Shown here piece by piece: positions 38,084 through 39,003 of a stretch of DNA of 64,000 nt. Location of the stretch: positions 1,630 to 65,629 of the forward strand of contig CAZDDW010000005.1 of assembly GCA_964504365.1 (NCBI GenBank), read 5' to 3'. A model generated the notes under the pieces. The model ran no database searches. It had not been told where the DNA came from and was given only the letters and a program-made list of their open reading frames with translations. This stretch comes from an uncultured Gammaproteobacteria bacterium (lineage in GTDB: Bacteria; Patescibacteriota; Patescibacteriia; UBA9934; CAZDDW01). The position numbers and the translations under genes were made by a program. Each line of letters starts with the position of its first letter. Position 1 is the first letter of the stretch.

Positions 38084-39003
38084 TCAGCTTCCAAATATTC
38101 AATTATAGCACTAGCGACGTCTATGGACGTTGCTTTTTCTAATGATTCAAAACCAGGGCAGGCGTTAACCTCAAGAACAAGTGGTCCGCGGTCTGATCGA
38201 ATCAGATCAACGCCAGCAATGTCGAGATCAAAATCACGTGCTGCATCCAGTGCAATCCGTTGCTCTTCGCTGGTTAAATCGGCAAGAGTACACTCCGCGC
38301 CTTGGTGCGCGTTAGATCGAAAGTCATTGCCAGTAGCTTTGCGTTCCATTGCGGCGACAACTTGATCTCCGACAACATAGACTCGTAGATCAGTTTTATC
38401 TGCCTCAGCAATAAATTCCTGCAAGATAACAGGGTTACGATCTCGGATATTTAGATAGTCTACAATCGGTTGGAGTGTTTCCAGGTCCTTGGCAATGAAA
38501 ACACCTTTGCCGTGTGTACCAAAAGCGACCTTGATAATAACTGGATAAGAAAGTTGTTCAGCAGCAGCAGCTGCATTGTTTGGATGTCGGACAATAATTG
38601 ATCGTGGTTGCGGGATCTGTTTCTGATTAAGCAACATGGTTTGTGCCAGTTTGTTGCGTGAAACAGAGAATGTTGGTGCGGCGTTGATAACATGATAGCC
38701 AGCGTTCTTTAACGTATCTGTGGTAACTGTGTGCAAGCTAGGTTCTTCACTGATTCCACCACGAGTCAAGATGAGATCAAAGTCACCAAGCGGCTTGTCG
38801 TTATAATTTATCCTCCCCCCTTTCGAAGGGGGGACAGGAGGGGGGTTCTGAGTACTATCGAAATCGAACGTAAACAACGGCTCAAATAAAATTTCAGCCT
38901 GATGACCACGATTTCTTGCCACCTTAAGAATTCGCTGCGATTCATAAGTCGTTTCTGATTCAGGTTTGATCTTTTTTGTAAAAACTAATATTCCGATTTT
39001 CAT
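38071..39003 (-). CDS. RimK-like ATP-grasp ligase with in-frame insertion of G/C hairpin repeat
   Basis: ATP-grasp motifs VIIKVAFGTHGKGVFIA, LQEFI, DLRVYVVGD; residues NPPPVPPSKGGRINY encoded by element copy at 38813-38853. Confidence 0.7.
   Translation of the reverse strand: MKIGILVFTKKIKPESETTYESQRILKVARNRGHQAEILFEPLFTFDFDSTQNPPPVPPSKGGRINYNDKPLGDFDLILTRGGISEEPSLHTVTTDTLKNAGYHVINAAPTFSVSRNKLAQTMLLNQKQIPQPRSIIVRHPNNAAAAAEQLSYPVIIKVAFGTHGKGVFIAKDLETLQPIVDYLNIRDRNPVILQEFIAEADKTDLRVYVVGDQVVAAMERKATGNDFRSNAHQGAECTLADLTSEEQRIALDAARDFDLDIAGVDLIRSDRGPLVLEVNACPGFESLEKATSIDVASAIIEYLEAEGRK

What the first reader, a model, noticed from the sequence alone, without database searches (positions are those of the whole stretch)
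38813..38853. In-frame insertion of a G/C hairpin element inside the rimK-like ATP-grasp gene
The sequence cctcccccctttcgaaggggggacaggaggggggttctgagtac (first hairpin plus start of the second hairpin of the G5/C5 element) lies inside ORF 38071-39003 without breaking the frame. It is translated as ...NPPPVPPSKGGRINY... in a region that looks like a surface loop of the ATP-grasp fold. It is either a tolerated mini-insertion of a mobile element into a CDS or a regulatory RNA structure within the mRNA.
Basis: partly seen in the sequence, partly recalled or inferred. Interest (0 to 1): 0.55.

Follow-up and report, generated by a model that had tools for sequence, protein, structure and literature searches.

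The report
Mobile hairpin repeat inside rimK gene
A 39-base copy of a small, apparently mobile G/C-rich hairpin repeat sits in-frame in a surface loop of a RimK-type enzyme gene in a candidate-phyla-radiation bacterium. The same repeat flanks small DUF559 nuclease genes in several phyla and interrupts essential genes in related genomes.

Summary
Window 38812-38850 is one 39-nt unit of a dispersed G/C hairpin repeat. It occupies exactly 13 codons (Q52-R64, QNPPPVPPSKGGR) of the 310-aa RimK-family gene at 38071-39003(-).

- **It is an insertion.** The closest homolog (about 80% identity) lacks it. 104 of 117 homologs have the short loop. E. coli RimK shows a 9-residue gap there.
- **It is in a loop.** AlphaFold places it in a low-confidence coil between two strands of the N-terminal domain (overall pLDDT 94).
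- **The site turns over.** Related Uhrbacteria carry the unit here in the same orientation, in the opposite orientation, with nested hairpins, or as a deletion remnant. All 7 fourfold-degenerate sites in the unit match between window and L001, against 41% outside it.
- **The family is linked to DUF559.** Two inverted units flank DUF559 (Vsr-like endonuclease) genes in CPR, Gammaproteobacteria and Thermodesulfobacteriota. Window copy 1-94 has ends identical to such an element from the same metagenome but lacks the gene.
- **Other genes are hit too.** In other CPR genomes single units lie in-frame in LigA, GatA, LeuRS, ValRS, DnaG and a tyrosine recombinase.

It behaves like Rickettsia palindromic elements, but the family looks undescribed. 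How it moves is inferred, not shown.

The parts
38071..39003 (-). Host gene: RimK-family ATP-grasp ligase, 310 aa, intact.
   Evidence: ORF list. Pfam RimK PF08443 4.6e-52. TIGR00768 scores 208 bits against a cutoff of 143, but the S6-glutamate-ligase equivalog PRK10446 scores 175 against 331. AF2 pLDDT 94, pTM 0.91. Foldseek to E. coli RimK 5zct gives TM 0.86/0.92.
38812..38850 (-). Single repeat unit, 39 nt = codons Q52-R64 (QNPPPVPPSKGGR). On the sense strand it reads arm CAGAACCCCCCTCC, linker TGT, then hairpin CCCCCC-TTCGAAA-GGGGGG and AGG.
   Evidence: nhmmer hit 38814-38851, 36 bits. It is 37/38 identical to a unit in a different gene of another MAG (L137).
38815..38833 (.). Small hairpin of the unit: CCCCCC / TTTCGAA / GGGGGG.
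38838..38850 (.). Arm GAGGGGGGTTCTG. In doublets it pairs with CAGAACCCCCC of the partner unit; here it has no partner.
   Evidence: and a reading (no CAGAACC downstream).
1..94 (.). Intergenic doublet A, cut by the window start. Unit 1-38, 16-nt centre, inverted unit 54-91. It ends 9 nt before the ATG at 103 of a 434-aa ORF that, by inspection only, resembles a Mur ligase.
   Evidence: RNA fold -65.9 kcal/mol, z = -6.5. The right unit is 40/40 identical, and the left unit differs by 1 base, from the flanks of the DUF559 gene in L166 from the same metagenome sample.
31819..31928 (.). Intergenic doublet B. Unit 31819-31858, ~28-nt centre, inverted unit 31887-31925.
   Evidence: RNA fold -66.8 kcal/mol, z = -6.0. 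Rfam gives only spurious sub-threshold miRNA-hairpin matches.

Best explanation
The segment is one unit (a singlet) of a family of short G/C-rich hairpin repeats that behave as selfish, mobile DNA. The complete form of the element is two inverted ~39-nt units flanking a small DUF559 (Vsr-like PD-(D/E)XK) endonuclease gene. Gene-less doublets of 95-110 bp and singlets are derivatives, and the window holds two such doublets between genes. A singlet landed in the rimK-family gene and persists for four reasons. It adds whole codons. Its C-run and G-run composition leaves it without stop codons in all six frames of this copy (only the TGA formed with the next base interrupts one frame). It encodes a Pro/Gly-rich peptide that forms a loop. 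It sits at the tip of a beta-hairpin in the N-terminal domain, outside the ATP-grasp catalytic domain (residues 116-304). The enzyme is therefore expected to remain functional with a loop 10 aa longer. Shown: the insertion status, the loop location, membership of the repeat family, the DUF559 association, and turnover at this site. Inferred: that the DUF559 nuclease, or host repair acting on hairpin DNA, moves the units, and that the peptide is neutral rather than useful.
For: (1) Insertion. P0002 (about 80% identity, sister to the window protein with 100% bootstrap) has FDFDSG--QCKIEY where the window has FDFDSTQNPPPVPPSKGGRINY. 104 of 117 homologs have a 15-20 aa loop between the anchors, against 29 aa here. 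E. coli RimK shows a 9-residue gap. (2) Loop. Residues 47-64 are coil between strands 44-46 and 65-67. Mean pLDDT of residues 51-60 is 57, in a model that averages 94. (3) Repeat family. There are 5 units in the window. A genome scan gave 74 matching stretches, of which I judged about 66 to be real units by eye, mostly in CPR MAGs but also in Vibrio, Pedobacter, Balneolaceae, Ignavibacteriales, Binatia and others. (4) Nucleotide-level conservation. Window against L001, the fourfold sites match 7/7 inside the unit and 34/83 outside. The unit is 37/38 identical to one in a different gene of another MAG (L137). (5) Turnover at the site. L001 has the same orientation. L006 has the opposite orientation, and its sister L162 is empty (net +33 nt). 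L004 has extra hairpins nested in the loop. L163 keeps a 3' remnant directly after TTCG, consistent with a deletion between TTCG(A) in the flank and TTCGA in the hairpin loop. More distant homologs carry SPPFQGGVRGGY-type inserts in the same loop. (6) DUF559 link. All 5 DUF559 ORFs found in 612 kb of loci abut units. L166, from the same sample as the window's RimK, has unit-DUF559-unit with ends matching window copy A. Two DUF559 homologs chosen by protein similarity alone, from Aliikangiella and a Thermodesulfobacteriota MAG, have units at the 3' end, with the stop codon in the unit linker. By my reading, about 17 of the 35 listed DUF559 homologs, which are mostly the longer ones, carry unit-like peptides at their ends. 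(7) Generality. Units lie in-frame inside Pfam-confirmed domains of LeuRS, ValRS, LigA, GatA, a tyrosine recombinase and a methyltransferase, in a DnaG linker, and just before the lamin-tail domain of a seventh protein. They appear as 8- and 10-residue gaps against solved LigA and GatA structures.
Against: No transposition event, target-site duplication or conserved target motif was found, so mobility rests on comparative patterns alone. The DNA of the closest empty allele (P0002) could not be retrieved, so the exact insertion boundaries are unknown. The net gain of 30-33 nt is smaller than the 39-nt unit. No DUF559 gene lies in the window itself. Repeated occupancy of the same loop, and perfect conservation of the stems, could also mean the segment is selected for a function. 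Whether the peptide is actually translated and tolerated was not tested.
Confidence: 0.82

Rival explanations
1. The hairpin is a cis-regulatory structure in the rimK mRNA or DNA, for example a translational pause site, an RNase target or a protein-binding site, and is kept by selection for that role.
For: The stems are perfectly conserved at synonymous sites between window and L001 (7/7 against 41%). A stable local hairpin of -18.7 kcal/mol forms. The same loop is occupied in several lineages.
Against: The closest homolog and 89% of homologs do without it. The same unit occurs in both orientations at this site. It also occurs in at least five frame/orientation combinations inside unrelated genes. 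The fold energy is not better than composition-matched shuffles (z = -0.7). No Rfam family matches.
Confidence: 0.07
2. The segment is an adaptive, lineage-specific extension of the RimK loop, a Pro/Gly-rich surface peptide recruited for an interaction. Its likeness to intergenic repeats is secondary, because the repeat merely supplied raw material that is now under protein-level selection.
For: The loop is extended in at least 13 of 117 homologs, sometimes by other sequence types. The reading frame is kept over long divergence: P0001, P0003, P0004 and P0006 are 61-65% identical.
Against: Presence is patchy between sister taxa with 97-100% bootstrap support. A deletion remnant is tolerated (L163). 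The opposite orientation gives an unrelated peptide, LSPLSKEGSKGGS, at the same place. pLDDT is low. Conservation is at the nucleotide level rather than the amino-acid level.
Confidence: 0.08
3. Assembly or sequencing artefact: a chimeric join or a mis-assembled repeat within the gene.
For: G/C homopolymer hairpins are error-prone and the data are metagenomic.
Against: The identical 310-aa protein is encoded on 12 contigs from independent JGI and ENA samples. Homologous inserts occur in independent assemblies (L001-L007). The frame is intact.
Confidence: 0.01

Closest known systems
Rickettsia palindromic elements (RPEs; Ogata et al. 2000, as summarised in the MITE review PMC10969869)
   Same: A dispersed palindromic repeat found both between genes and in-frame inside unrelated housekeeping genes. 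It is translated as extra peptide said to be compatible with the host protein's fold and function.
   Different: RPEs are about 100-150 bp, confined to Rickettsia, and have no associated enzyme gene that I know of. Here the in-gene form is a 39-nt singlet. The family spans several phyla, and its long form carries a DUF559 endonuclease gene. Sequence homology to RPE families was not tested.
REP/REPIN elements with RAYT transposases (Bertels and Rainey 2011, PMC3116915; Nunvar et al. as discussed in PMC3733652)
   Same: Short imperfect palindromes that occur as singlets and as inverted doublets forming a long hairpin. A single-copy enzyme gene is flanked by inverted units.
   Different: There is no GTAG or CGTC tag. 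The flanked gene is a PD-(D/E)XK DUF559 nuclease, not an IS200/IS605-like HUH enzyme. REPINs are essentially extragenic, whereas these units are common inside CPR coding sequences.
Free-standing Vsr-like homing endonucleases (Dassa et al. 2009, PMC2677866; I-Bth0305I, listed with Vsr/DUF559 in PMC3424549)
   Same: A small Vsr/DUF559-clade nuclease acting as a selfish gene, with hairpins next to the ORF. This is precedent for nuclease-driven spread into conserved genes.
   Different: Those nuclease genes sit inside split-intein or intron loci of phage-like DNA and break the host gene. Here the nuclease gene is absent from the rimK site and only a 39-nt in-frame unit is present. Homing activity of these DUF559 proteins is untested.
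Cyanobacterial small dispersed repeats (SDR; Elhai et al. 2008; cited from my own knowledge, paper not read here)
   Same: Very small (21-27 nt) mobile palindromic repeats found nested in other elements and in conserved sequences, with no known mobilising enzyme.
   Different: Different sequence, size and taxa. No DUF559 link has been reported, to my knowledge.

Membership tests
RimK-family ATP-grasp ligase (host gene) | RimK ATP-grasp domain and the rimK_fam subfamily model above their cutoffs | tested here: met
   PF08443 4.6e-52. TIGR00768 scores 208.4 bits against a cutoff of 143.4.
RimK-family ATP-grasp ligase (host gene) | Equivalog of ribosomal protein S6--L-glutamate ligase (PRK10446) | tested here: not met
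   174.6 bits against a cutoff of 331. This is a family member, but the substrate is not established.
RimK-family ATP-grasp ligase (host gene) | RimK three-domain fold | tested here: met
   AF2 pLDDT 94. Foldseek to 5zct gives TM 0.86/0.92, E = 7e-32.
Rickettsia palindromic elements (RPE) | Dispersed palindromic repeat inserted in-frame in protein-coding genes | tested here: met
Rickettsia palindromic elements (RPE) | Sequence membership in an RPE family; about 100-150 bp; Rickettsia host | tested here: not met
   The unit is 39 nt and the doublets 95-110 bp. The hosts are CPR and other phyla. No sequence comparison with RPE consensus sequences was run.
REP/REPIN-RAYT | 20-40 nt imperfect palindromes occurring as inverted doublets that form a long hairpin | tested here: met
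   (z = -6.5 and -6.0).
REP/REPIN-RAYT | GTAG or CGTC tag at one end of the repeat | tested here: not met
   Position profile of 71 units: the outer end is YYCCCCY and the inner end is GGTTCTG. No GTAG or CGTC.
REP/REPIN-RAYT | Cognate RAYT (IS200/IS605-type TnpA) gene flanked by the repeats | tested here: not met
   The flanked gene is DUF559, PF04480 2.6e-34.
MITE | Terminal inverted repeats and small size with no coding capacity | tested here: met
   Doublets at window 1-94 and 31819-31928. The singlet in rimK has only one end.
MITE | Target-site duplication | tested here: not met
   No direct repeat beyond chance and no conserved flank. None at L155 or L166.
MITE | Parent autonomous element with matching ends that encodes a transposase | tested here: inconclusive
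   A longer element with matching ends exists (L166 against window 1-94). Its only gene is a DUF559 nuclease, which is not a recognised transposase.
Free-standing homing endonuclease gene (Vsr-like) | Vsr/DUF559-clade nuclease ORF within the element | tested here: met
   Met for the long form (L155, L166, L117, L124). Not present at the rimK site or anywhere in the window.
Free-standing homing endonuclease gene (Vsr-like) | Site-specific cleavage of empty alleles and copying of the element by repair | not testable with these tools
   Repeated occupancy of one RimK loop is suggestive only.

The most novel reading that the evidence does not exclude
DUF559 'endonuclease domain-containing proteins' are the mobilising enzymes of a hairpin mini-element family found in several bacterial phyla. 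This would be a nuclease-driven mobile system that is neither transposase- nor RAYT-based. Its 39-nt units insert as whole codons into essential genes, especially in CPR bacteria, and so repeatedly remodel protein surface loops.
Probability: 0.3. Interest if true: 0.8.

Novelty: new variant of a known kind. Interest (0 to 1): 0.62.

Why it matters
In-frame invasion of genes by palindromic repeats is the classic oddity of Rickettsia. Finding the same behaviour in candidate-phyla-radiation bacteria shows it is not a Rickettsia peculiarity. The element here is different and much shorter, and it hits LigA, GatA, LeuRS, ValRS, DnaG and RimK. It is a source of loop variation in very small genomes.

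The link to DUF559 is a concrete lead on two open questions. One is what the very abundant, uncharacterised DUF559 endonuclease genes do. The other is how sub-100-nt repeats move.

There is also a practical side. These units inflate ORFs, create spurious N- and C-terminal extensions on DUF559 proteins, and add insertions that could be mistaken for lineage-specific protein features.

Tried and rejected
- **DNA of P0002 and P0004.** The DNA of the closest empty allele (P0002) and of the long-insert allele (P0004) could not be fetched because the sample file is too large.
- **Viral contigs.** A scan with the unit pattern gave 0 matches.
- **Rfam.** At gathering thresholds there were only two tRNAs in the window. 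With relaxed thresholds doublet B gave only sub-threshold miRNA-precursor hits, meaning generic long hairpins, which I rejected.
- **Literature.** Searches for DUF559, for the unit sequence itself, for Patescibacteria with in-frame insertions, and for Vsr-like selfish hairpins found no description of this element.
- **Target site.** A search for a target-site duplication or conserved target motif found none.
- **Chance pattern matches.** Eight pattern matches in the genome scan (L096, L097, L115, L123, L132, L133, L135, L152) lack the C and G runs. I treated them as chance and left them out of the unit model.
- **Phase variation.** I considered slippage in the C6/G6 runs and set it aside. The runs are short, and the frame is intact in all 12 contigs.

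Full report

The ORF at 38071-39003 on the minus strand is open, starts with ATG and encodes 310 aa. Its translation contains ...FDFDSTQNPPPVPPSKGGRINY....

The + strand at 38812-38850 reads CCTCCCCCCTTTCGAAGGGGGGACAGGAGGGGGGTTCTG. The hairpin core and its near matches occur 8 times in the window, against 0.00 expected from shuffles. The C5...G5 pattern occurs 9 times against 0.22 expected.

The segment is 88% complementary over 41 nt to window 52-92. It also aligns with the copies at 1-45 and 31820-31864.

Reading those copies shows the architecture. Each intergenic copy is a doublet with this layout:
- a small hairpin;
- an arm, GGGGGNGGTTCTG;
- a centre of 16-28 nt;
- the complementary arm, CAGAACCCCCC;
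- a second small hairpin.

The gene holds one unit only, with no partner arm downstream. The unit occupies exactly 13 codons (Q52-R64).

**2. Host gene.**

The protein is a RimK-family ATP-grasp ligase.
- Pfam RimK scores 4.6e-52.
- TIGR00768 scores 208 bits against a cutoff of 143.
- It falls below the cutoff of the S6-glutamate-ligase equivalog, at 175 against 331.

Named homologs are from Candidatus Uhrbacteria and Patescibacteria. The AF2 model has mean pLDDT 94 and pTM 0.91. It superposes on E. coli RimK 5zct with TM 0.86/0.92.

**3. Is the segment an insertion?**

In an alignment of 32 homologs, the nearest relative P0002 (80% identity by BLASTP, 83% in the alignment) reads FDFDSG--QCKIEY. 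Most other homologs have equally short loops.

Over 117 homologs, the stretch between conserved anchors is 15-20 aa in 104 of them and 29 aa here. E. coli RimK aligns with a gap of 5+4 residues opposite the segment.

In the model, residues 47-64 are coil between strands 44-46 and 65-67. The block 51-60 has mean pLDDT 57, the lowest in the protein. The insert therefore sits at the tip of a beta-hairpin in the N-terminal domain, outside the ATP-grasp domain (Pfam match 116-304).

**4. The same loop in relatives.**

DNA of homologous loci shows the following:

| Locus (protein, identity to window) | State of the loop |
|---|---|
| L001 (P0003, 65%) | Same unit, same position, same length, same orientation |
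| L006 (P0009, 59%) | Unit in the opposite orientation (CTCTCCCCCCTTTCCAAGGAGGGATCAAAGGGGGGATCTG, read as LSPLSKEGSKGGS). Its sister L162 (P0011) is empty; net difference 33 nt |
| L004 (P0006) | Starts with the same CCCAGAACC arm but has about 46 nt of extra hairpins nested in the loop of the small hairpin |
| L163 (P0005) | Scored as empty at protein level, but keeps GAAAAGGGGAAGGGAT directly after TTCG |

The L163 remnant is what a deletion between TTCG(A) in the upstream flank and TTCGA in the hairpin loop would leave.

A neighbour-joining tree with the insert columns masked pairs filled and empty alleles as sisters:
- P0001/P0002, 100% bootstrap;
- P0009/P0011, 100%;
- P0005/P0006, 97%.

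More distant homologs (P0054, P0076, P0050) carry SPPFQGGVRGGY-type peptides in the same loop. These back-translate to the unit, but I did not check their DNA.

So the site has seen at least two independent gains, one in each orientation, plus a loss and nesting.

Comparing the window with L001, fourfold-degenerate sites are identical at 7 of 7 positions inside the unit and at 34 of 83 outside it. The window unit is also 37/38 identical to a unit in a different gene of another MAG. That copy is L137, which lies next to a C-terminus that by inspection looks like a SEC-C motif. The unit is therefore either younger than the gene divergence, or homogenised, or constrained at the DNA level. It is not a drifting protein loop.

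**5. What is the repeat?**

A degenerate pattern that matches all five window units was scanned over one genome per species. It found 74 matching stretches.

By eye, 8 of these are chance matches that lack the C and G runs. The rest are clear units. They come from Uhr-, Buchanan-, Falkow-, Lipton-, Doudna- and Moranbacteria and other Patescibacteria. They also come from MAGs labelled 'uncultured Gammaproteobacteria', one of which (CAYZPO = GCA_964480695.1) carries the Uhrbacteria-like RimK homolog P0006. Units occur outside the CPR as well: Vibrio rotiferianus, Pedobacter africanus, Balneolaceae, Ignavibacteriales, Abditibacterium, Binatia, Zixibacteria and a cyanobacterial MAG.

In L155 the two inverted units flank a 118-aa ORF that is DUF559 (PF04480, 2.6e-34).

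A jackhmmer search over all six-frame ORFs of the loci and the window found five DUF559 ORFs. All five directly abut units. None is in the window.

I then tested the link starting from the protein side.
- **Peptide scan.** A DUF559 homolog search followed by a peptide scan listed 35 homologs, mostly the longer ones. By my reading of their ends, about 17 carry unit-like peptides. PFSKGGLGG-type peptides are at the N-terminus. NPPLSPLGKGG- or TTPNPSLKRRG-type peptides are at the C-terminus. These are the orientations expected for inverted flanking units.
- **Same sample as the window.** P0122 (81% identical to the L155 protein) occurs in the same samples as the window's RimK, including JGI 3300009374. 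Its locus L166 reads: left unit, 14 nt, DUF559, right unit. The stop codon TAA lies in the linker of the right unit. The right unit is 40/40 identical to window 55-94, and the left unit differs by one base from window 1-38. Window doublet A is therefore a gene-less derivative of this element.
- **Other phyla.** Two further DUF559 homologs were picked by protein similarity alone. One is from Aliikangiella sp. (complete genome) and one from a Thermodesulfobacteriota MAG. Both have units at the 3' end, with the stop codon (TAG or TAA) in the unit linker. The second also has units upstream.

The DUF559-unit architecture is thus conserved across at least three phyla.

**6. Generality of in-frame singlets.**

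Of the pattern matches, 42 lie in stop-free stretches of 250 aa or more. This count includes some ORF-edge and chance cases. The units are read in at least five frame/orientation combinations:
- PFQGG..GGS
- LLSKEG.GEVL
- SEPP.APP.KGG
- QNPP.SPLGKGG
- RTTP.PSLERRG

I scanned ten host ORFs against Pfam. Two had no match. In the other eight the unit lies as follows:
- within the LeuRS editing domain;
- within the ValRS anticodon-binding domain;
- within the LigA adenylation domain;
- within the GatA amidase domain;
- within a tyrosine-recombinase catalytic domain;
- within a methyltransferase domain;
- in a linker of DnaG;
- about 20 residues before the lamin-tail domain of an eighth protein.

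Against solved structures, the unit peptides appear as 8-residue (LigA) and 10-residue (GatA) gaps. An nhmmer model found 102 units in 612 kb of loci, and most loci hold a singlet.

**7. Mechanism.**

Shown: the family is dispersed, has gene-carrying, doublet and singlet forms with matching ends, and turns over at orthologous sites.

Not shown: how it moves. No target-site duplication or conserved target motif exists. The net gain at rimK (30-33 nt) is smaller than the 39-nt unit, and the empty L162 site has GATTCTG where the unit ends in GGTTCTG. This hints at microhomology-guided repair rather than cut-and-paste, but that is inference.

DUF559 belongs to the Vsr clade of PD-(D/E)XK nucleases. 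That clade includes a group I intron homing endonuclease (PMC3424549). Free-standing Vsr-like homing endonucleases with adjacent hairpins have also been described (PMC2677866). A nuclease-driven spread is therefore plausible.

The unit survives in coding sequence for three reasons. It is free of stop codons in all six frames of this copy, except for the TGA formed with the following base in one frame. It adds whole codons. It encodes Pro/Gly-rich loop peptide.

**8. Rivals.**

- **Regulatory RNA.** This is not supported. The hairpin z-score is -0.7, both orientations occur at this site, the unit occurs in many genes and frames, and most homologs lack it.
- **Adaptive loop.** This cannot be excluded, but it fits poorly with sister-taxon polymorphism, the tolerated remnant, and nucleotide-level rather than peptide-level conservation.
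- **Assembly artefact.** This is excluded by 12 independent contigs.

**9. Comparison with known systems, and novelty.**

Functionally this is the Rickettsia palindromic element phenomenon (PMC10969869). In architecture it resembles REPIN/RAYT systems (PMC3116915). It fails defining tests of both:
- no GTAG or CGTC tag;
- no RAYT gene;
- not extragenic;
- different size and taxa.

It also lacks the target-site duplication and the transposase expected of a MITE.

Rfam has no family for it. Five literature searches found no description of it. The library lacks most subscription journals, so prior description elsewhere cannot be excluded.

I rate it a new variant of a known kind, with interest 0.62.

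Noticed in passing
window 8310-8560, 27865-28115 (plus an inverted partial copy at 28200-28262), 41846-42100: Three intergenic copies of a ~250-nt repeat, with 84% mean column identity. They fold as a long hairpin with long terminal inverted arms (GCCGGCCACGG...TTCTTTTTGTGAGAA / TTCTCACAAAAAGAA...GTGGCCGGC). RNA fold z is -6.0 on the + strand and -8.0 on the - strand. There is no Rfam match. It looks like a MITE or a structured RNA family.
   Followed up: partly
window 10887-10969, 38008-38095, 40385-40472: AT-rich palindromes of about 75 nt built from GTAGARR heptads (AGTAGAGAGTAGAAGGTAGACAGTAGAG ... 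CTCTACTTTCTAC). They lie at gene 3' ends. One sits exactly between the convergent stops of the DUF6938-like gene (36660-38006) and rimK. They could be bidirectional terminators or a second repeat family carrying GTAG motifs.
   Followed up: no
L001 ~1440-1475, L163, L164 and L004 10628-10690 (equivalent to window RimK residues ~198-203, empty in the window): A second hairpin-insertion hot spot in RimK homologs, after the QEFI motif. L001 has a perfect 12-bp hairpin (ATAGGCGGCAGC-CCC-GCTGCCGCCTAT, read as RRQPPLPPIAS). L163 and L164 have GCGGGGTC-AGG-GACCCCGC types. L004, P0004 and P0008 have a 42-nt palindrome read as PNAIRDGLE..SNGSLIRS.
   Followed up: partly
RimK homologs P0047, P0065, P0087, P0112 (same loop as the finding); L139 ~4060-4100 and L091 next to units: A different widespread repeat, read as CHPERSEGSP / ..RDDK and corresponding to GTCATCCTGAGCGNAGCGAAGGATCTC-type hairpins, occupies the same RimK loop in other lineages. 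The DNA motif was seen directly only in L139 (L091 has a diverged GTCATCCCGAGAG... form), adjacent to G/C units.
   Followed up: no
L166 1860-1892; L174 960-1000; L175 945-985: The DUF559 ORF ends inside the downstream unit. The arm encodes the last residues, and the stop codon (TAA or TAG) is the linker between arm and hairpin. This holds in CPR, Gammaproteobacteria and Thermodesulfobacteriota.
   Followed up: partly
window 72-105; L092 ~340-372: Units often end a few bases upstream of start codons (GGGGGGAGAGACATATTTATG before the gene at 103). Their GGAG/GGAGG may act as a Shine-Dalgarno sequence for the neighbouring gene.
   Followed up: no
L088-L161 record titles (CAZCLT, CAYZPO, CAYZNO, CAZBUQ ...): Several TPA 'binchicken' MAGs titled 'uncultured Gammaproteobacteria' carry the same repeat units as CPR MAGs. 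One of them, CAYZPO = GCA_964480695.1, encodes the Uhrbacteria-like RimK homolog P0006 in the same gene neighbourhood as the window. The taxon label is probably wrong.
   Followed up: partly
window 31182-31240 and 32713-32758: Inverted AACCAGAAAACCAG-type repeats 1.47 kb apart (up to 46 nt, 76-88% complementary) bracket the region that contains doublet B. They may simply be low-complexity coding repeats in convergent genes.
   Followed up: no
L126 1250-2000: A different arrangement of units around a DUF559 gene. Direct repeats of an ~85-nt composite (inverted unit, GACGAATCAGTC spacer, unit) lie on both sides. This looks like back-to-back ends or tandem elements.
   Followed up: no
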